This document shows, one piece after another, positions 309 to 35,929 of a DNA stretch of 36,893 bases. The translations under genes were made by a program, and so were the position numbers. How positions within the stretch are numbered: the stretch's first letter is position 1; each line of letters starts with the position of its first letter. This stretch comes from a virus: the IMG/VR virus record IMGVR_UViG_3300045988_007631, one strand, 5' to 3'. The notes under the pieces were generated by a model that saw only the letters and a list, made by a program, of their open reading frames with translations, was not told the origin of the DNA and did no database searches.

Positions 309-1331
309 TTAAAATGCCGCGTCCATCTGGGCGGCGACCTTATCAATGCTGGTGTCGAGGATGTCGGTATAGATATCCATAGTGGTGGAGAGTTGGGCGT
401 GGCCGAGAAGCTGCTGGGCGGTTTTGTAGTCGACGCCTGCTTCATGCAGGGCGGTCGCGTAGCCGTGGCGGATCTCGTGCGGGGAGACGGTGACACCGGT
501 GCGCTTCTGGTACTGCGCGTAGTTACGGGATATGATCCAGTCGGGCGAAGGAGACTTGCCGCCGTCGGGGGAGAAGATAAAACCGTGTTTTTTATCCGGG
601 AGGACGGCAGCCAGAGCGGGCAGAAGCGGAACGGAACGGATACCGGCGGCGGTCTTCGGCTCTTTGATCTCCGGCTTGGTGCTGACGTTGTAGACGCTGC
701 GCCTGATGCTGATGCGGTTTTTCACGCGGTCGATATCCTCATACATCAGCCCTTCTGCCTCGCCGCGTCGGCAGCCGGTATAATAGATCAGGAAAGCGAA
801 AAGGCCGAATTCGTCATTTACGTTAGCCTTGATCTTTTGAATCTGGTCGGTGGGCGGCGCGTGCCGCTTCTTCTGTGAGAGGTTCTTCGGGAGCAGGACG
901 GATTCGGCGGGATTGAAGGCAATGTACCCTTCGCGCTGGGCCTTATTCAGAATCTGCCGGATGATCTGCCGCTGGGTGATGACGGTCTTCTTCGCGTGTG
1001 TTTTGGAAAATTGATTGATGTACGTTTCGATCTCCTTGGCCGTGATCGTGGAGACGTCCTCTGGGCCGAACTGCTCGACGGCGCGGTCGTATGCGGGACT
1101 ATAGCCCTTGTGCGTATTTGCGGCAAGCGTTGGCTCGATCTCGTTCCACCAGGCGTGGGCGACGTCGAAGAACGGGACGGTCTTTGGCTTCTCGGCTTCA
1201 GCGCGGTATGCCTTGATCTTGTTCCAGACCTCTCGGTCTGTCTTGCCGCGAAACGCTTTGCGCTTGCCGTTGACTGTGATGATGGATTCATGCAGGCCGT
1301 CCGGCCTGACGTAGTATTTGGGAATTGGCAT
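309..1331 (-). CDS. int: Tyrosine recombinase / phage integrase
   Basis: 340 aa from ATG 1331 (GGAGG about 8 nt upstream; the track ORF extension to 1436 has no RBS). Catalytic boxes YYTGCRRGEA, HEIRHGYATAL and LLGHAQLSTTMDIYTD (R..HxxR..H..Y). Confidence 0.9.
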   Translation of the reverse strand: MPIPKYYVRPDGLHESIITVNGKRKAFRGKTDREVWNKIKAYRAEAEKPKTVPFFDVAHAWWNEIEPTLAANTHKGYSPAYDRAVEQFGPEDVSTITAKEIETYINQFSKTHAKKTVITQRQIIRQILNKAQREGYIAFNPAESVLLPKNLSQKKRHAPPTDQIQKIKANVNDEFGLFAFLIYYTGCRRGEAEGLMYEDIDRVKNRISIRRSVYNVSTKPEIKEPKTAAGIRSVPLLPALAAVLPDKKHGFIFSPDGGKSPSPDWIISRNYAQYQKRTGVTVSPHEIRHGYATALHEAGVDYKTAQQLLGHAQLSTTMDIYTDILDTSIDKVAAQMDAAF

Positions 1332-1383
1332 CGTAAAACCTCCAAGAATACCGCTCCGGCTGATCGGGCCGGGGCGGTAATTT

Positions 1384-1812
1384 TCATGTGCGAATCCAGC
1401 CGATCGATGGGATGAGCACGTCGGCCACAAGCGCAAGGGCGCACAGCAAAAGAATACCCAAGAGGATGAGCGTCACAAGCCGGTGCATGCGCAGGGATTT
1501 CTGCTGCTGGGCAAGCTGCGCACGAAGCGCTGCGGTCTCGGCACGGAGTTTTTCGGCATCGGCAGGCTCGGCAGGCTCGGCAGGATCGGCAGGATCGTCA
1601 TGCGGGATGCCGAAATAATCGTCCATGGAGACACCCATCTCCCGGCAGATCGGGCCGACCGTGTAAACAGACGGATTTTTGATGTCGCCGCGAAAGAACT
1701 GGGAGACGGTGCCGACGGAAAGGTCGGTATTTTCGGCGACGTCCTGATTTGTTTTGTGCGGAGTGATCGTCTGCTTCTGCTCACGGCATAAATCAGATAA
1801 TTTTTCCTTCAA
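1384..1812 (-). CDS. Membrane-tethered XRE-family HTH protein
   Basis: 142 aa, TTG start. HTH NQDVAENTDLSVGTVSQFFRG, acidic Pro/Ala repeat linker (DPADPAEPAEPAD), coiled segment, C-terminal hydrophobic helix LVTLILLGILLLCALALVADVLI. Confidence 0.7.
   Translation of the reverse strand: MKEKLSDLCREQKQTITPHKTNQDVAENTDLSVGTVSQFFRGDIKNPSVYTVGPICREMGVSMDDYFGIPHDDPADPAEPAEPADAEKLRAETAALRAQLAQQQKSLRMHRLVTLILLGILLLCALALVADVLIPSIGWIRT
1561..1596. repeat. 9-bp x4 tandem repeat inside CDS 1384..1812
   Basis: GGCAGGCTC x2 then GGCAGGATC x2. Encodes the PAEPAEPADPAD-type linker on the minus strand. Confidence 0.8.
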
Positions 1813-3720: not shown

Positions 3721-3749
3721 ATAATATCGCAGCAATATCGCGTTGTCAA
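3721..3749 (-). promoter_or_regulatory. Leftward sigma-70-type promoter for the repressor
   Basis: On minus: TTGACA (plus 3744-3749), 17-nt spacer, TATTAT (plus 3721-3726). Confidence 0.6.
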
Positions 3750-3791
3750 TATTTTTTGCAAAAACGGGCTTGACAAATATCGCATTGCGAT
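3723..3791. promoter_or_regulatory. Candidate operators of the genetic switch
   Basis: AATATCGC at 3723-3730, 3734-3741 and 3776-3783. The third sits in the perfect palindrome ATCGCA-T-TGCGAT (3779-3791), inside the rightward promoter spacer. Confidence 0.5.
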
Positions 3792-3798
3792 GTAATAT
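3770..3798 (+). promoter_or_regulatory. Rightward early promoter
   Basis: TTGACA 3770-3775, 17-nt spacer, TAATAT 3793-3798 (TATAAT also at 3796-3801). Confidence 0.65.
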
Positions 3799-32559: not shown

Positions 32560-32868
32560 ATGGACTACACGCAAATCATCTCGGCAGTAATCGCGCTCAT
32601 CAGCGCGCTCGTCTCTGCATTTTTGATCCCGTGGATCAAGACGAAGATCGACGCGGACAAGCTGCAAACGATCCGCACTTACGTTGAGATCGGCGTAAAG
32701 GCGGCGGAGCAGCTGTACACCGCGACGGACGGCGCAGCGAAAAAGGCGTATGTTGTGAATTTCCTCGCCGAGAAGGGCATTCAATTTGATGTAGAAACGA
32801 TCGACAAGCTGATCGAGGCCGCCGTGCTGCAGCTGCACCACGAGCTGTACGGGAGTGAGCGGGCATGA
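32560..32868 (+). CDS. Holin (LL-H-like)
   Basis: 102 aa. N-terminal TM IISAVIALISALVSAFLIPWI, then a helical tail. ATGA-type overlap with the endolysin. Confidence 0.6.
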   Translation: MDYTQIISAVIALISALVSAFLIPWIKTKIDADKLQTIRTYVEIGVKAAEQLYTATDGAAKKAYVVNFLAEKGIQFDVETIDKLIEAAVLQLHHELYGSERA

Positions 32869-33575
32869 GTATCAAGATCGGACAGGCCAGCCTCGGCGAG
32901 ACGGGCGGCCGGAACCAGCAGCCCGGCAACCAGAACGGGCGGGAGCTGAATATCTCCAACTGGTACAACGGGCGTTGGCTCGGCGTCCTGCGCTACAAGA
33001 GCCGCAAAAAGGCCGAGCGGGCCGCGCAGACGTGCGAGGCGGCCATTAAAAACCGGAACATCGGTTACGATATGAGCGACCGGAACACGGCGTATGAGGC
33101 CGCCAGAGCCGTCGGATGGGACGTGAGCAAGATCACAAAGCCAGTGGAGACGGACTGCTCCGCGCTCATGATGCTCTGCGCCGTGGCCGCAGGCTGCGAG
33201 GCCGTCGCCGCGCTCTACAAAAAGCAGGGGAATTCCTGCACCACCTACTGTATGCTGCACGATTGGCCTGCGACGGGAGACTTCAAGCTGCTGACCGGCA
33301 GCAAGTATCTGACGACGGACGCGAATCTCCTGCGCGGCGACGTGCTGGTAAGCTCGGGCCATACCGTGATGGCCCTCGAAGATGGAAAAAATGCAGAGGA
33401 GGAGACTGAGATGGTAGAAAAGAGCAAAATCATCATGGACGGCAAGGAAGTCGCCGTTGAGCGTATCCTGAAAAACGGTACGAATTACATCAAAGTGCGC
33501 GATTTGGCTGCTGCGCTGGATCTCGAAGTGAGCAGCAAGGGCAATATCGCTGTGCTGAATCACAAGGAAAAGTAA
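32865..33575 (+). CDS. Endolysin: Cys/His papain-like peptidoglycan hydrolase plus C-terminal wall-binding-like domain
   Basis: 236 aa. ETDCSALMM (Cys) and SSGHTVMAL (His). C-terminal MDGKEVAVERILKNGTNYIKVRDLAAALDLEV resembles copper-amine-oxidase-N-type domains. Confidence 0.7.
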   Translation: MSIKIGQASLGETGGRNQQPGNQNGRELNISNWYNGRWLGVLRYKSRKKAERAAQTCEAAIKNRNIGYDMSDRNTAYEAARAVGWDVSKITKPVETDCSALMMLCAVAAGCEAVAALYKKQGNSCTTYCMLHDWPATGDFKLLTGSKYLTTDANLLRGDVLVSSGHTVMALEDGKNAEEETEMVEKSKIIMDGKEVAVERILKNGTNYIKVRDLAAALDLEVSSKGNIAVLNHKEK

Positions 33576-33613
33576 GCCCTGCCCGACGGCGGGCCGAAGG
33601 GAGTGACGAAAGC

Positions 33614-33847
33614 ATAACTGCGCGGCTGGCTCTGCCGAAGGAGCTGGAACACCTCACGCGCAGCGACTGGGAGCGCGTCACTGACGAGGGACTTTTGGAC
33701 GTGATCGATCAGCAGATCGTGAGACTTTATATCGTGCGCAGGCTCCCGCAGATGGACGCGGCCGGTGAAATCGGCATCGACCGCAAGACCATCTCCCGCC
33801 GCCTGCCGCACATCTACAACACCGCCCGCCGTCTGACAGGAGCATAA
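33614..33847 (+). pseudogene. Start-less sigma-70 region-4-like HTH reading frame (truncated gene, non-canonical start, or 48-aa product from GTG 33701)
   Basis: Frame open 33461-33847 with no ATG near its 5-prime end. Encodes ..LPKELEHLTRSDWERVTDEGLLDVIDQQIVRLYIVRRLPQMDAAGEIGIDRKTISRRLPHIYNTARRLTGA. GAGGGA lies 9 nt before GTG 33701. Confidence 0.35.
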
Positions 33848-33852
33848 CGCAA

Positions 33853-33889
33853 AGCACCCGTGGGATTCGTCCCACGGGTGCTTTTGTAT
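33853..33889. terminator. Strong bidirectional terminator between convergent units
   Basis: AGCACCCGTGGGA (33853-33865) pairs with TCCCACGGGTGCT (33870-33882), a 13-bp stem with loop TTCG, followed by TTTGTAT. On the minus strand it is followed by TTTGCGTT. Confidence 0.8.
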
Positions 33890-33900
33890 CAGGCCCGCAG

Positions 33901-34440
33901 TTATCCTGCGGGCTTATTTTGTTGCATGAGCGCGTCCCAGCGGGACCAGAGTTCGCGGTTGCAAGGTTCGCCGTGCAGCGAATTGAGAATATCGGCGACT
34001 TCTGCCGGGCTTTGATAGTACAGGACGCACGTTTCGCCGGTCTGCGTGCGCCGAAATTGCAGCTTTTTCGGCCCTGCCGGAAAATGCGAGGATACTTGCG
34101 TTAAAAGCTCAGGCTGCCCGTAAACCCGCAACCGTGGTGTCCTGATGGGATTGCCACGTACCTTGTGCGGCCAGAGATCAAGGCAAGCTTGCAGCTCCAC
34201 CACACCGCGGCAAAATCCCTGCCAATCCGTCACGTCGGCGAGGGACGGGAGAAGATGCACCTTCGCGGATTTCACAACCCAAAAGGGTTTCTTTCCGTCT
34301 GCACGGTGCTGGAGGTATGGCGCGGTTGGGAAAAGCTCGGCAACCGCGTCGATGTACCACCGATCAACACAGCGCACAAGGAACTTGCCGCAGGTATCAA
34401 CGCCGAGCAGCATGAGGATCGCTTGCTGATAGCCAGTCAT
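33901..34440 (-). CDS. Hypothetical 179-aa protein, last gene of the leftward accessory operon
   Basis: ATG 34440 overlaps the upstream stop (ATGA). The longer 353-aa track ORF is an Arg-rich alternative frame over the HTH gene. Weak, non-catalytic resemblance to a double LAGLIDADG fold (MLLGVDTCG, FCRGVVELQA); speculative. Confidence 0.6.
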   Translation of the reverse strand: MTGYQQAILMLLGVDTCGKFLVRCVDRWYIDAVAELFPTAPYLQHRADGKKPFWVVKSAKVHLLPSLADVTDWQGFCRGVVELQACLDLWPHKVRGNPIRTPRLRVYGQPELLTQVSSHFPAGPKKLQFRRTQTGETCVLYYQSPAEVADILNSLHGEPCNRELWSRWDALMQQNKPAG

Positions 34441-34790
34441 TTTCGATACCTCTGATTGCTCAAGGTTAAAATCTCGGCTGCCATTGTGGCCACATACGGC
34501 GGGCAGGCGCGGTCGCCGAGGCACCAGTGCTGCACGGTACGCAGAGGAACGTTGAAATACTGCGCAAAGCCAGTCTGCGTTAGTCCGTATTTCTCGATTA
34601 GCTCCGGGATCGTGCAGTGCGCGCCGTCCCAGATCCCGCCGAGCAGCGCAATCCGCTCTGCCGGAACATCTGCGTCTTCGGCATCGCCCCAGACGCTGGA
34701 CAGTGCCATATCGGAGATATAGGCGTCGCGGTCGGTGTATGCGCCTGTTTCGGCGTAGAGAGCAGCGCGGATTGCGGGTGTGAGTTTCAT
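34437..34790 (-). CDS. HTH DNA-binding protein (XRE-like C-terminal HTH)
   Basis: 117 aa, GAGGAGGA before ATG 34790. YGLTQTGFAQYFNVPLRTVQHWCLGDRACPPYV. High third-position GC consistent with coding. Confidence 0.75.
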   Translation of the reverse strand: MKLTPAIRAALYAETGAYTDRDAYISDMALSSVWGDAEDADVPAERIALLGGIWDGAHCTIPELIEKYGLTQTGFAQYFNVPLRTVQHWCLGDRACPPYVATMAAEILTLSNQRYRK

Positions 34791-34883
34791 GTGGGTTCCT
34801 CCTCATTTTTGCAATTTTCGGCGTCATCGCCTGCTGGTAGCCGTTCATTCCCGCGTCCTCCTTGCTTGCGTTGGCCGCAATCA

Positions 34884-35087
34884 TCAGCAGATGCGGATGA
34901 AACCATCGCTGCAAGCCTTGAGCGTGTAGCTGGTGCTGTCGTCGTGCGCGTCGGCGATCCACTCTTCTTCATCATCGTCGTACCGGATACTGTCGTAATC
35001 GACGACCAGATCGGCCATCTCCTCTGCATTGTCTGCCAGCCAGTCGCGGATCATGGTGTCCATCATATCCCTGTTCATTTCGTACAT
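34884..35087 (-). CDS. Very acidic 67-aa protein (candidate DNA mimic / anti-defence protein)
   Basis: GGGAGGT before ATG 35087. 14 Asp + 6 Glu versus 5 Lys/Arg. First gene after a consensus promoter. Confidence 0.6.
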   Translation of the reverse strand: MYEMNRDMMDTMIRDWLADNAEEMADLVVDYDSIRYDDDEEEWIADAHDDSTSYTLKACSDGFIRIC

Positions 35088-35132
35088 TTTTGTTACCTCC
35101 CGGCTTATCGCCTTGTTTTATCTTATGGTCTT

Positions 35133-35161
35133 ATTATACGCCCATTGGGCGCAAAAGTCAA
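35133..35161 (-). promoter_or_regulatory. Near-consensus sigma-70 promoter with palindromic operator in its spacer
   Basis: On minus: TTGACT (plus 35156-35161), 17-nt spacer, TATAAT (plus 35133-35138). The spacer holds the perfect palindrome CGCCCA-T-TGGGCG (35139-35151). Confidence 0.7.
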
Positions 35162-35293: not shown

Positions 35294-35929
35294 ATGGAAT
35301 ACGCAAGCAAAGGACTCGCGGGGACTGCGCTGGGCTTTGGCATCGGCGGCGCCGCGCTGGGTCTGGCAAACGGCGGGCTCGGAAATCTGCTGGGCGGCCT
35401 CAACCAGAACAACAAGTCGGCAGCCGCTGACATCGCTGCGGCGGTCACGCCTGCCATGACGGTCGCCGCCATGCTCGCCGCACGGCAGCAGGAGCCGACG
35501 TGCAGTGAGAACATGCCGGTCACGCGCTACGATCTTGACCGGGAACAGAAGCTGGCCGCGAAGGACAGCGAGATCGCGCTGCTCAAGGCCAACACGTACA
35601 ACGACGGCAAGATGCTGGAGGTGTACAGTTATATCGACAGGCAGCTCAAGGACGTCCATGAGGCGCTGTGCAAGCAGGCCGTCCACAACCAGCGCACAGA
35701 GGACAGCTTCACGCTGGTCAAGCAGGACGTCGAGTCTGTCCGCAAGGAAGCCCTTGGCGCGGTCAAGATGGAGGCCGAGCGCCGCTGCTGCGGCGACAAC
35801 GCCCTGAAGACCTATGTCAACGCAACCTTTTATCCCAAGCAGGTCGCAGATGTCACCACCGGCACCGCGACCACGGCGCAGACGCTCTACGATCCGCTCC
35901 CGAAGTGCTGCGGCTGCTGCAACAACTAA
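35294..35929 (+). CDS. Glycine-zipper / coiled-coil protein with C-terminal CCGCC tail, function unknown
   Basis: 211 aa, GGAGG 8 nt upstream. GLAGTALGFGIGGAALGLANGGLGNLLGGL, central heptad-like region, RRCCGDN and PKCCGCCNN. Confidence 0.7.
   Translation: MEYASKGLAGTALGFGIGGAALGLANGGLGNLLGGLNQNNKSAAADIAAAVTPAMTVAAMLAARQQEPTCSENMPVTRYDLDREQKLAAKDSEIALLKANTYNDGKMLEVYSYIDRQLKDVHEALCKQAVHNQRTEDSFTLVKQDVESVRKEALGAVKMEAERRCCGDNALKTYVNATFYPKQVADVTTGTATTAQTLYDPLPKCCGCCNN

What the first reader, a model, noticed from the sequence alone, without database searches (positions are those of the whole stretch)
33853..35161. Self-contained leftward operon: consensus promoter with operator, very acidic protein, HTH, 179-aa protein, terminator (acr/aca-like)
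This unit is transcribed opposite to the structural genes and bounded by a near-consensus promoter (TTGACT-17-TATAAT, 35161-35133) and a 13-bp-stem terminator (33853-33889). The promoter spacer is filled by a perfect palindrome, CGCCCA-T-TGGGCG (35139-35151), the same operator-in-spacer design as the main switch but a different sequence. Gene 1 encodes a 67-aa protein with 20 acidic and 5 basic residues, which is DNA-mimic-like. Gene 2 is an HTH protein. Gene 3 (179 aa) is ATGA-coupled to it. A strong promoter, small acidic protein and autoregulating HTH is the established architecture of anti-CRISPR/aca and other anti-defence loci. The third gene has no analog I recognise, so the unit could equally be a new prophage-encoded defence or toxin-regulator system.
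Basis: partly seen in the sequence, partly recalled or inferred. Interest (0 to 1): 0.75.

Follow-up and report, generated by a model that had tools for sequence, protein, structure and literature searches.

The report
Self-regulated phage anti-defence-type operon
A gut prophage carries a small operon built like an anti-CRISPR locus: a strong promoter shut off by its own helix-turn-helix protein and a slot for small acidic proteins (a proven anti-CRISPR family in relatives), plus an unexpected, apparently non-cutting relative of homing endonucleases.

Summary
A near-consensus promoter with a 6-1-6 palindrome in its spacer drives three leftward genes that end at a 15-bp hairpin. The window is a temperate phage of a gut Clostridia host, and the operon lies behind the lysis genes.

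In about 110 related contigs the operon is a mosaic cassette. The promoter module occurs once or twice per phage, and gene order and content vary.

- **Gene 2 (Xre-type HTH)** is the constant element. Four palindrome half-sites pair 1:1 with four versions of its recognition segment, in 93 loci and 38 distinct proteins. Distant homologues follow the same pairing. It is almost certainly the autorepressor, playing the role of an Aca.
- **The slot of gene 1** holds other small proteins, mostly of pI 4.0-4.5, in relatives. In six phages it holds an AcrIC5 homologue (Pfam 1e-24). Gene 1 itself matches no known family or fold.
- **Gene 3** has a confident LAGLIDADG fold (pLDDT 95) but lacks both catalytic acids. 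Distant relatives carry HTH or Zn-ribbon domains. It is optional cargo, absent from 60 of 80 gene-2 cassettes.

Verdict: an acr-aca-type anti-defence operon with a new regulator family and a new degenerate LAGLIDADG family. No function was tested.

The parts
35133..35161 (-). Sigma-70-type promoter TTGACT-17-TATAAT (-35 at 35156-35161, -10 at 35133-35138), preceded by an AT-rich stretch
   Evidence: It matches 11 of 12 positions. It is one of only 2 sites within one mismatch of consensus in the window, against 0.02 expected. The whole module is conserved and repeated once or twice per phage in relatives.
35139..35151 (.). Operator: palindrome CGCCCA-N-TGGGCG filling the promoter spacer and abutting the -10 box
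   Evidence: Sequence read. The same position holds CGCTCA/TGAGCG, CACGCA/TGCGTG, CACCCA/TGGGTG, TACGGTA/TACCGTA and other palindromes in relatives. Each type goes with a matching regulator variant.
35088..35126 (-). 5' leader with conserved initial transcribed block (A)CCATAAGATAAA and a GGGAGG ribosome-binding site
   Evidence: The block is conserved across operator types A, B and C, and is present with or without gene 3. It has little predicted structure. The transcription start site is inferred, not mapped.
34884..35087 (-). Gene 1: 67-aa acidic protein (pI 4.05) in the variable first slot; candidate anti-defence protein
   Evidence: Composition. Only 12 close homologue clusters exist. No family match. 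The AF2 model (pLDDT 75.7) is a helix plus 4 strands with no PDB fold match. The slot holds AcrIC5 homologues in L045-L051.
34826..34848 (-). Remnant of the first 23 nt of gene 3 (ATGAACGGCTACCAGCAGGCGAT) between genes 1 and 2; a recombination scar
   Evidence: In L006 the same sequence after gene 1 continues into an intact gene 3. P0012 begins with the same leader peptide.
34437..34790 (-). Gene 2: 117-aa regulator with a conserved N-terminal domain (DRDAYISDMALSSVWGD) and a C-terminal Xre-type HTH; inferred autorepressor (Aca-like)
   Evidence: Family hits. At least 100 homologue clusters exist. It is the constant gene of the cassette. It covaries with the operator.
34506..34553 (-). Codons 80-95 of gene 2: the specificity segment NV..TVQ-H-WC-L-G-D-R-A-C
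   Evidence: The only alignment columns that separate operator type A from type B are residues 80, 81, 88, 91, 93 and 95. The 1:1 mapping to operator half-sites holds in 93 loci and 38 distinct proteins.
33901..34440 (-). Gene 3: 179-aa two-domain LAGLIDADG-fold protein lacking the canonical catalytic acids; optional cargo, probably a nucleic-acid-binding protein
   Evidence: AF2 pLDDT 94.9 with alpha-beta-beta-alpha-beta-beta x2 topology. Foldseek top hits are I-Tsp061I, I-AniI, I-OnuI and WhiA and phage LAGLIDADG endonucleases. No Pfam or PDB sequence hit. Motif positions. Domain fusions.
33891..33915 (.). Hairpin 1, covering the stop codon of gene 3
33851..33884 (.). Hairpin 2: 15-bp perfect stem with a 4-nt loop; bidirectional terminator shared with the convergent + strand gene
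   Evidence: Arms located. Fold z = -8.2 on the - strand and -9.7 on the + strand. The T-tract is better on the + strand.

Best explanation
The unit is an accessory operon of the anti-defence (acr-aca) type, sitting behind the lysis genes of a temperate phage that infects gut Clostridia.

Proposed mechanism:
- A very strong sigma-70 promoter fires on entry or induction and drives the cargo genes.
- Gene 2, an Xre-type HTH protein, then builds up. It binds the 6-1-6 palindrome lying between the -35 and -10 boxes (presumably as a dimer) and shuts the promoter down, as Aca proteins do.
- Gene 1 occupies the exchangeable first slot. It is most likely a small acidic inhibitor of a host defence component.
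- Gene 3 is a second, optional cargo gene. It is a compact LAGLIDADG-fold protein that has lost both catalytic acids. Most likely it binds a specific nucleic-acid sequence rather than cutting it, in the manner of WhiA or LAGLIDADG maturases. Its target is unknown.

Shown here: the anatomy, the mosaic cassette structure, the operator/HTH covariation, the AcrIC5 homologue in the same slot of relatives, and the fold and motif state of gene 3.

Inferred: repression, the anti-defence activity of gene 1, and DNA or RNA binding by gene 3.
For: 1. Strength of the signals. The promoter matches 11 of 12 positions and is one of two such sites in 36.9 kb, against 0.02 expected. The terminator folds at z = -8.2.

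2. A modular cassette. The module of terminator, promoter, palindrome and leader is repeated once or twice per phage. It drives different first genes: gene 1, ETK87, KQY72 or an AcrIC5 homologue.

3. Operator and regulator covary one-to-one.
- CGCCCA pairs with TVQHWCLGDRAC, CGCTCA with TVQGWCLGERAC, CACGCA with TVQDWCGGRRGC, and CACCCA with TVQNWCGGQREC. This holds in 93 loci and 38 distinct gene 2 proteins.
- The only gene 2 alignment columns that separate type A from type B lie in residues 80-95, while gene 3 has none.
- L050 carries the symmetric double change in both of its promoter copies.
- Homologues only 45-52% identical keep the same pairing: D88 with CACGCA and N88 with CACCC.
- Where gene 2 is replaced by a ribbon-helix-helix protein, the palindrome changes again.

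4. Gene 2 is the constant 3' gene. It sits behind varied small ORFs that mostly have no known family.

5. A validated anti-CRISPR in the same slot. In L045-L051 the first gene is an AcrIC5 homologue (PF22147 at 1e-24; 7yhr_A at 4.7e-9). AcrIC5 is an experimentally validated type I-C inhibitor with homologues in gut Firmicutes and Actinobacteria (PMC7913775). It is described as small, highly acidic and blocking target-DNA binding. The first-slot proteins gene 1, ETK87 and the AcrIC5 homologue have pI 4.05-4.06 and other cargo proteins 4.05-4.5; KQY72 (pI 6.05) is the exception.

6. Gene 3 is a conserved, non-canonical LAGLIDADG protein.
- The fold is confident.
- The family-wide motifs are xLGIIWxxG and AYIE-x-H/Q-G, so the catalytic position 8 is hydrophobic in motif 1 and H or Q in motif 2.
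- Invariant basic and polar residues lie on the beta-strands: R23, K50, K57, R103, R105, K125 and Q128.
- Relatives are fused to HTH_3, sigma-region-4-like HTH or Zn-ribbon domains.
Against: - No activity was tested for any of the three proteins.
- Gene 1 has no similarity in sequence or predicted fold to any known anti-defence protein. Its model is only moderately confident. Acidic composition alone is weak evidence.
- Only one known Acr family was found among the many cargo genes.
- Covariation could partly reflect linkage. The operator and the gene 2 HTH segment lie within 0.3-1.5 kb of each other in a recombining region.
- The half-site spacing of 7 bp centre to centre is short for a classical HTH dimer.
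- A His or Gln at the catalytic position, together with the invariant E82 and D88, leaves a non-canonical nuclease activity of gene 3 possible.
- The host and its defence repertoire are unknown.
Confidence: 0.6

Rival explanations
1. Gene 3 is an active, free-standing homing endonuclease or nickase with a non-canonical active site (E82, Q/H84, D88). The mosaic structure of the region would then reflect its mobility, with the neighbouring small genes hitch-hiking.
For: - It has the LAGLIDADG fold.
- Its distribution among near-identical phages is patchy: 20 of 80 gene 2 cassettes carry it.
- Gene order varies and the cassette is inverted in some phages.
- A remnant of its 5' end marks a recombination junction.
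- Distant relatives carry N-terminal HTH modules, and one carries a 'homing endonuclease associated repeat' (PF18780), the usual architecture of homing endonucleases.
- Invariant lysines K50 and K125 could correspond to the active-site lysines of two-domain enzymes. This is inference only.
Against: - The acid at position 8 of both LAGLIDADG motifs is missing across the sampled family members, about 80 aligned out of 170 representatives. In characterised enzymes that change abolishes cleavage (established knowledge for I-CreI D20 and its equivalents).
- There is no sequence match to any LAGLIDADG Pfam family.
- The gene always lies inside a regulated operon behind small ORFs, mostly acidic, not between conserved essential genes.
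Confidence: 0.15
2. The operon is a prophage-encoded toxin-antitoxin, abortive-infection or superinfection-exclusion module. Gene 2 (possibly with acidic gene 1) would act as the autoregulating antitoxin and gene 3 as a nuclease-like toxin or effector that protects the lysogen.
For: - The layout resembles type II TA loci: an autoregulated promoter with a palindromic operator and an Xre/HigA-type HTH.
- Relatives carry a Zn-ribbon-HTH protein with weak MqsA-antitoxin similarity, 9.5e-6 and below the Pfam cut-off.
- The genes overlap by ATGA in the window.
- The location, at the prophage end behind the lysis genes, is typical of morons that protect the lysogen.
Against: - Gene 2 occurs without gene 3 in 60 of 80 cassettes, and gene 3 occurs with ribbon-helix-helix partners instead, so they are not an obligate pair.
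- The ATGA overlap is derived and confined to two loci.
- Gene 3 lacks catalytic residues.
- PADLOC gives no hit for any of the three genes.
- An anti-CRISPR homologue sits in the same slot in relatives.
Confidence: 0.1
3. Gene 3 works together with the HTH or RHH protein as a split, WhiA-like transcription factor. It would control phage or host genes, and the small acidic genes are unrelated to defence. On this reading the unit is a generic regulated moron.
For: - WhiA is among the fold hits (3hyi at 1e-4).
- HTH_3-gene 3 fusions exist (P0183), as do sigma-region-4-like HTH fusions.
- A DNA-binding partner gene lies next to gene 3 in the divergent loci examined.
- A sigma-region-4-like gene is a constant neighbour of the cassette.
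Against: - Gene 3 shows no residue that covaries with the operator.
- The conserved leader motif does not depend on its presence.
- It is dispensable for the cassette.
- No common candidate binding site was found.
Confidence: 0.12

Closest known systems
acr-aca operons (anti-CRISPR genes with an Aca HTH autorepressor, for example the aca1- and aca2-associated loci; AcrIC5 was found next to aca1, PMC7913775)
   Same: Both have a strong promoter with an inverted-repeat operator overlapping the core promoter. Both have one or more small, fast-evolving and mostly acidic first genes, with a conserved HTH gene at the 3' end. The cargo can be exchanged between related phages. An AcrIC5 homologue occupies the slot in six relatives.
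   Different: The regulator is a family with no name. It has a conserved ~55-aa N-terminal domain and no detectable link to a described Aca, although no Aca library was available to test this. The operator lies wholly inside the 17-bp spacer as a 6-1-6 palindrome. The promoter module is often duplicated within one phage. Many cassettes add a degenerate LAGLIDADG protein or Zn-ribbon proteins. The hosts are gut Clostridia, and no Acr activity has been shown.
WhiA (DUF199; PDB 3hyi and 3hyj): degenerate LAGLIDADG domains plus an HTH
   Same: Both have a two-domain LAGLIDADG scaffold without catalytic acids that is associated with a small HTH domain. Foldseek E-values are 1e-4 to 5e-4.
   Different: There is no sequence similarity. 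In the window the HTH is a separate protein. In fused relatives it is N-terminal, not C-terminal. The window protein is 179 aa against about 300 aa for WhiA. It is phage accessory cargo, not a conserved cellular gene.
Monomeric LAGLIDADG homing endonucleases (I-Tsp061I 2dch, I-AniI, I-DmoI/I-OnuI class) and LAGLIDADG maturases (bI3, 2ab5)
   Same: The fold and pseudo-dimeric topology match, with TM-scores up to 0.68. The small residue at motif position 3 and the acid at position 6 of motif 2 are kept. The distribution is patchy.
   Different: Position 8 is hydrophobic in motif 1 and Q or H in motif 2 in every family member examined. No Pfam LAGLIDADG hit was found. The gene is not in an intron or intein. 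Maturases share the loss of catalytic residues, but they bind intron RNA.
Fused regulator-inhibitor anti-CRISPRs (AcrIIA1, AcrIF24); from my own knowledge, not tested here
   Same: An HTH is fused to a second domain in relatives of gene 3 (P0183 and others). This would fit a regulator plus effector protein.
   Different: There is no sequence or fold relationship, and the second domain here is a DNA-binding-type fold.

Membership tests
acr-aca operon | Promoter with an inverted-repeat operator overlapping the core promoter elements | tested here: met
   A 6-1-6 palindrome fills the spacer and abuts the -10 box. The same design, with other palindromes, is found in relatives wherever a promoter was detected.
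acr-aca operon | A conserved HTH (Aca) gene in the operon whose product recognises that operator | tested here: met
   The evidence is comparative only. There is a 1:1 mapping of four half-sites to four recognition segments in 93 loci and 38 proteins. The discriminating columns are confined to residues 80-95. Distant homologues obey the same pairing. Physical binding was not tested.
acr-aca operon | The Aca protein represses the acr promoter (negative autoregulation) | not testable with these tools
   This needs a reporter assay or EMSA. Repression is inferred from the operator position between near-consensus -35 and -10 boxes with an optimal 17-bp spacer.
acr-aca operon | The upstream small gene(s) inhibit CRISPR-Cas | tested here: inconclusive
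   Gene 1 has no hit to any family or fold. The homologous slot holds an AcrIC5 homologue in L045-L051. That is guilt by association only.
acr-aca operon | Gene 2 belongs to a described Aca family (Aca1-Aca13 and so on) | not testable with these tools
   No Aca profile library was available. Pfam, NCBIfam and PHROGs give only generic Xre-HTH hits or families of unknown function.
AcrIC5 (PF22147) | Gene 1 matches the family profile or fold | tested here: not met
   No Pfam hit at E <= 1. No PDB fold match, best E 0.44.
LAGLIDADG homing endonuclease | Alpha-beta-beta-alpha-beta-beta-alpha core fold, here duplicated in one chain | tested here: met
   pLDDT 94.9 with matching topology. Forty-two PDB matches at E <= 1e-3; the 50 best matches listed are all LAGLIDADG enzymes, a maturase or WhiA. 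BFVD gives phage LAGLIDADG proteins.
LAGLIDADG homing endonuclease | Recognisable LAGLIDADG sequence motif or Pfam family membership | tested here: not met
   None of 32 members hit a LAGLIDADG Pfam model at E <= 10. The PDB profile search gave nothing. hhalign against I-CreI gave probability 0.4%.
LAGLIDADG homing endonuclease | Acidic catalytic residue (D or E) at the C-terminal end of each LAGLIDADG helix (motif position 8) | tested here: not met
   The helix ends are L12-G13 and Q84-A/G85. Family-wide the residue is hydrophobic in motif 1 and H or Q in motif 2. Placement rests on the AF2 secondary structure, not on a superposition.
LAGLIDADG homing endonuclease | Mobile, patchy distribution at a defined insertion site | tested here: inconclusive
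   The distribution is patchy (20 of 80) and there is a junction scar. No empty target site was defined.
WhiA-like regulators | Degenerate LAGLIDADG domain joined to a C-terminal HTH in one polypeptide, with WhiA Pfam domains | tested here: not met
   There is no WhiA Pfam hit. The HTH is a separate gene in the window and is N-terminal in fused relatives. Only the fold resembles WhiA.
Type II toxin-antitoxin (Xre/HigA/MqsA-type antitoxin with a cognate toxin) | Obligate, conserved pairing of the HTH gene with one toxin gene | tested here: not met
   Gene 2 occurs without gene 3 in 60 of 80 cassettes, and gene 3 occurs with RHH partners. No toxin family hit was found.

The most novel reading that the evidence does not exclude
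Gene 3 would found a new class of phage accessory proteins. It would be a LAGLIDADG homing-endonuclease scaffold that has lost cleavage and been re-used as a sequence-specific DNA or RNA binder inside anti-defence cassettes. One example would be silencing or occluding a host immunity locus, such as a CRISPR array, leader or cas promoter. Another would be acting as a second, non-HTH 'Aca'. Gene 2 would then be a new Aca family whose operator specificity can be read from four residues (88, 91, 93, 95). That would make it an anchor for finding many new anti-defence genes in gut Clostridia phages.
Probability: 0.15. Interest if true: 0.8.

Novelty: new variant of a known kind. Interest (0 to 1): 0.62.

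Why it matters
Anti-defence genes of phages that infect the dominant gut Clostridia are almost unknown. The guilt-by-association anchors (aca genes) used to find them come mostly from Proteobacteria.

- **A new anchor.** Gene 2 is a widespread, unnamed regulator with at least 100 clusters at 90% identity. It sits behind a recognisable promoter-operator module and in front of a terminator. Every gene between them is a candidate anti-defence gene: gene 1, ETK87, KQY72, TSV119, P125 and others.
- **A natural specificity series.** The operator/recognition-helix series (H, G, D or N at residue 88 against CGCCCA, CGCTCA, CACGCA or CACCCA) can be tested directly. It also yields orthogonal repressor-operator pairs.
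- **A new LAGLIDADG family.** The degenerate LAGLIDADG family (170 representatives at 50% identity) extends the short list of non-catalytic LAGLIDADG proteins (WhiA, maturases) to phage accessory regions.

Tried and rejected
- **Family searches for genes 1 and 3.** Pfam, PHROGs, PADLOC and NCBIfam gave nothing useful.
- **Other cargo proteins.** Pfam and PHROGs on about 25 proteins returned only AcrIC5, generic HTH or Zn-ribbon domains and families of unknown function.
- **Sequence link of gene 3 to LAGLIDADG.** The relation is by fold only.
- **Fold of gene 1.** A PDB fold search gave no match, best E 0.44. The DNA-mimic idea therefore remains untested.
Rejected, because no gene 3 column tracks operator type.
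- **The conserved leader block CCATAAGATAAA as a gene 3 site.** Rejected as specific to gene 3, because it is present in cassettes without gene 3.
- **Annotated GenBank phages.** Gene 3 has no tblastn hit. Gene 2 hits only unannotated faecal contigs.
- **Literature.** No paper links LAGLIDADG proteins to acr loci.
- **The 353-aa ORF at 33901-34962.** It is gene 3 read through into an alternative frame of gene 2, and is not a gene.
- **Host genome search.** It gave only 3 loci (Agathobaculum hominis, a Ruminococcus MAG and a Eubacteriales MAG). This suggests the host clade only loosely.
Full report
**1. The observation**

- The promoter TTGACT-17-TATAAT lies at 35161-35133 on the minus strand and matches 11 of 12 positions.
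- Only two sites in the whole 36.9-kb window lie within one mismatch of TTGACA-N17-TATAAT, against 0.02 expected from shuffles. The other site is the lysis/lysogeny switch at 3721-3749.
- The spacer is filled by the palindrome CGCCCA-N-TGGGCG at 35139-35151, which abuts the -10 box.
- Gene 1 (34884-35087) encodes 67 aa with 20 acidic and 5 basic residues and a pI of 4.05.
- Gene 2 (34437-34790, 117 aa) has a C-terminal Xre-type HTH.
- Gene 3 (33901-34440, 179 aa) overlaps gene 2 by ATGA.
- The terminator is a 15-bp perfect hairpin at 33851-33884. A second hairpin at 33891-33915 precedes it and covers the stop codon of gene 3. The pair folds far better than shuffles, at z = -8.2 on the operon strand and -9.7 on the other strand.
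- The T-tract is better on the + strand. The terminator is therefore bidirectional and shared with a convergent gene.

**2. Context**

The window is a nearly complete temperate phage.
- It carries an integrase (309-1436, minus strand), a large terminase, a major head protein, a holin (32560-32868) and a lysin-like protein (32865-33575).
- The operon lies behind the lysis genes near the right end, the classical place for accessory genes (morons).
- Near-identical contigs come from human-gut viromes.
- The few cellular hits are an Agathobaculum hominis genome, a Ruminococcus MAG and a Eubacteriales MAG.

**3. The operon is a mosaic cassette**

I collected 54 loci through gene 3 and 80 through gene 2. 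Together they represent about 110 distinct contigs.
- Gene order varies: 1-2-3 (window and L004), 2-1-3, 3-2, 2-X-3, and gene 3 without gene 2.
- The module of about 100 bp (upstream terminator, AT-rich tract, promoter with palindrome, conserved leader) occurs once or twice per phage. It drives different first genes: gene 1, an 87-aa protein (ETK87), a 72-aa protein (KQY72) and others.
- In some phages the whole cassette runs in the same direction as the lysis genes. In the window it is inverted.
- Two details of the window are derived states. The ATGA overlap arose by loss of the gene 2 stop codon and spacer. A 23-nt remnant of the gene 3 start lies between genes 1 and 2 at 34826-34848.

**4. 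Which protein reads the palindrome**

In every locus where a promoter was detected, a palindrome lies in the promoter spacer against the -10 box, but its sequence differs between groups.

Among loci with a gene 2 homologue, four half-sites pair one-to-one with four versions of the HTH recognition segment:

| Operator half-site | Gene 2 recognition segment |
|---|---|
| CGCCCA | TVQ-H-WC-L-G-D-R-A-C |
| CGCTCA | TVQ-G-WC-L-G-E-R-A-C |
| CACGCA | TVQ-D-WC-G-G-R-R-G-C |
| CACCCA | TVQ-N-WC-G-G-Q-R-E-C |

- This mapping holds in 93 loci and 38 distinct gene 2 proteins, with essentially no exceptions.
- The rest of gene 2 is itself mosaic. The same N-terminal variants occur with different operators.
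- The only alignment columns that fully separate type A from type B are residues 80, 81, 88, 91, 93 and 95. Gene 3 has no such column.
- L050 carries the symmetric double substitution (CGCTCA/TGAGCG) in both of its promoter copies.
- Homologues only 45-52% identical still obey the pairing, D88 with CACGCA and N88 with CACCC.
- Where gene 2 is replaced by a 60-aa ribbon-helix-helix protein, the palindrome is different again (TACGGTA-A-TACCGTA).

I conclude that gene 2 binds the palindrome. The operator lies between near-consensus -35 and -10 boxes at the optimal 17-bp spacing, so binding should repress. Both steps are inferred, not shown.

**5. Which gene is constant**

- In the gene-2-anchored sample, 60 of 80 cassettes lack gene 3. 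A typical cassette there is promoter, ETK87, P125, gene 2, terminator.
- In distant loci gene 2 is again the last gene, behind varied small proteins, many of them acidic, and Zn-ribbon proteins with no known family.
- This is how aca genes behave. Genes 1 and 3 are independent, optional cargo.

**6. The first slot**

- In six phages (L045-L051) the first gene behind the equivalent promoter is a 66-aa protein. It matches Pfam PF22147 (AcrIC5) at 1e-24 and 86.9 bits, against a cut-off of 27. It also matches the solved AcrIC5 chain 7yhr_A at 4.7e-9.
- AcrIC5 is a validated type I-C anti-CRISPR with homologues in gut Firmicutes and Actinobacteria. It is active against the Eggerthella lenta I-C system (PMC7913775).
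- It is described as small, highly acidic and blocking target-DNA binding.
- Most of the alternative cargo proteins have a pI of 4.0-4.5, like gene 1; KQY72 (pI 6.05) is the exception.
- Gene 1 itself has only 12 close homologue clusters and no family hit.
- Its AF2 model is of moderate confidence (pLDDT 75.7; one helix and four strands). It matches no solved structure, best E 0.44.
- Its anti-defence role therefore rests on position and composition only.

**7. Gene 3**

Gene 3 belongs to a small family, with 46 clusters at 90% identity and 170 representatives among 1.84 billion proteins.

Fold:
- AF2 gives a very confident model (pLDDT 94.9, pTM 0.89) with the alpha-beta-beta-alpha-beta-beta topology twice in one chain.
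- The 50 best PDB matches listed are all LAGLIDADG proteins: I-Tsp061I (4.6e-6), I-AniI, I-OnuI and relatives, the bI3 maturase, and WhiA.
- The viral structure library gives phage LAGLIDADG endonucleases.
- No sequence method sees the relation.

Active site:
- The two motif helices end at L12-G13 and Q84-A/G85.
- Across the family the motifs read xLGIIWxxG and AYIE-x-(H/Q)-(G/S). The small residue at position 3 and the acid at position 6 of motif 2 are kept.
- Position 8, the catalytic acid in all characterised enzymes, is hydrophobic in motif 1 and H or Q in motif 2.
- Invariant basic and polar residues lie on the beta-strands that form the DNA-binding saddle in this fold: R23, K50, K57, R103, R105, K125 and Q128.

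Fusions and neighbours:
- Distant relatives carry N-terminal HTH_3, one or two sigma-region-4-like HTH domains, or a 'homing endonuclease associated repeat'. Closer relatives carry Zn ribbons.
- In the divergent loci examined the gene lies in a prophage accessory region. In most it sits behind small ORFs, often acidic, and beside an HTH or RHH gene.

I read gene 3 as a non-catalytic, sequence-specific nucleic-acid-binding protein, resembling WhiA or a maturase in principle. Its target is unknown. A non-canonical nuclease using E82, Q/H84 and D88 cannot be excluded.

**8. Mechanism and rivals**

Best explanation (confidence 0.6): an acr-aca-type anti-defence operon.
- The promoter gives a burst of cargo expression.
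- Gene 2 then closes the promoter through the spacer palindrome.
- Gene 1 is a candidate inhibitor of a host defence component.
- Gene 3 is optional DNA- or RNA-binding cargo.

Rivals:
- Gene 3 is an active homing endonuclease that explains the mosaic structure (0.15). This is weakened by the family-wide loss of the catalytic acids.
- The unit is a toxin-antitoxin or exclusion module (0.10). This is weakened because genes 2 and 3 are not an obligate pair and PADLOC finds nothing.
- Gene 3 and the HTH form a split WhiA-like regulator unrelated to defence (0.12). This is weakened by the lack of covariation and by gene 3 being dispensable.

**9. Comparison with known systems**

- The unit works like an acr-aca operon and meets the architectural criteria that could be tested. 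Activity criteria could not be tested.
- Membership of gene 2 in a described Aca family could not be checked.
- Gene 3 shares the fold of LAGLIDADG homing endonucleases but fails the motif and catalytic-residue criteria. I do not file it as an endonuclease.
- It resembles WhiA in principle but fails WhiA's architecture and sequence criteria.

**10. Novelty and score**

This is a new variant of a known kind. The new elements are:
- an unnamed regulator family with a readable operator code;
- a set of uncharacterised candidate anti-defence proteins in gut Clostridia phages;
- a new degenerate LAGLIDADG family tied to these cassettes.

Nothing was shown functionally, so I score interest at 0.62.

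Noticed in passing
window 34826-34848 (-): The first 23 nt of gene 3 (ATGAACGGCTACCAGCAGGCGAT, with its own ribosome-binding site) sit between genes 1 and 2 as a dead-end 5' remnant. In L006 the same sequence continues into an intact gene 3. This points to a past gene 1-gene 3 arrangement that was broken by recombination.
   Followed up: yes
window 33597-33847 (+): The convergent neighbour encodes a sigma-70 region-4-like HTH protein, related at about 42% identity to the 82-aa 'sig82' that flanks the cassette in many relatives. It has no ATG, GTG or TTG start before codon 46. A GAAGGGAG ribosome-binding site is followed by ATA at 33615, so it may use a non-canonical start or be decaying.
   Followed up: partly
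L005 2571-3176, L025 5033-5638; P0028, P0029, P0044: A 201-aa protein with three CxxC...CxxC zinc ribbons and a gene-2-like HTH occurs in many cassettes. It has weak MqsA similarity, 9.5e-6 and below the Pfam cut-off. The same kind of Zn-ribbon domain is fused to the N-terminus of some gene 3 homologues. Zn ribbon, HTH and the LAGLIDADG-like domain therefore look like interchangeable partners.
   Followed up: partly
window 35110-35126 (-), and the equivalent position in L003, L028, L045 and L084: The initial transcribed block (A)CCATAAGATAAA just after the -10 box is conserved across operator types A, B and C, although the sequence upstream differs. It is present with or without gene 3. Its function is unknown; it could be a start-site context or a second control element.
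   Followed up: partly
window 3721-3798: The only other near-consensus promoter in the window (TTGACA-17-TATTAT, minus strand) faces a divergent TTGACA-17-TAATAT promoter. Its spacer contains a direct repeat of GCGATATT rather than a palindrome.
   Followed up: no
L015, L016, L028 and others, compared with the window: In many relatives the cassette is co-directional with the lysis genes (holin, lysin, sig82, cassette, then a 127-aa protein of phrog_3754). In the window group it is inverted and convergent. The whole unit has been flipped or re-inserted during evolution.
   Followed up: partly
L003 5900-5965 (Agathobaculum hominis): This locus has a second, partial copy of its operator (CGCCAAAATGGC) just upstream of the -35 box, in addition to the spacer copy (ACGCCA-AAA-TGGCGT). 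Gene 3 comes directly behind the promoter, with the gene 2 homologue downstream.
   Followed up: no
window 35294-35929 (+): The divergent neighbour encodes a 211-aa protein with a Gly/Ala-rich N-terminus and a C-terminal CCGCCNN motif. It has no PHROG or NCBIfam match.
   Followed up: no
window 33901-34962 (-): The ORF list shows a 353-aa open frame that runs from gene 1 through gene 2, in another frame, into gene 3. It is an artefact of the high G+C content and the gene 3 frame, not a gene.
   Followed up: yes
gene 2 residues 14-55 (window 34626-34751): The N-terminal domain of gene 2 (YTDRDAYISDMALSSVWGDAED..P.ER...LG.IWD) is more conserved across the family than the HTH. It matches no known domain. 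It may serve for dimerisation or sensing.
   Followed up: no
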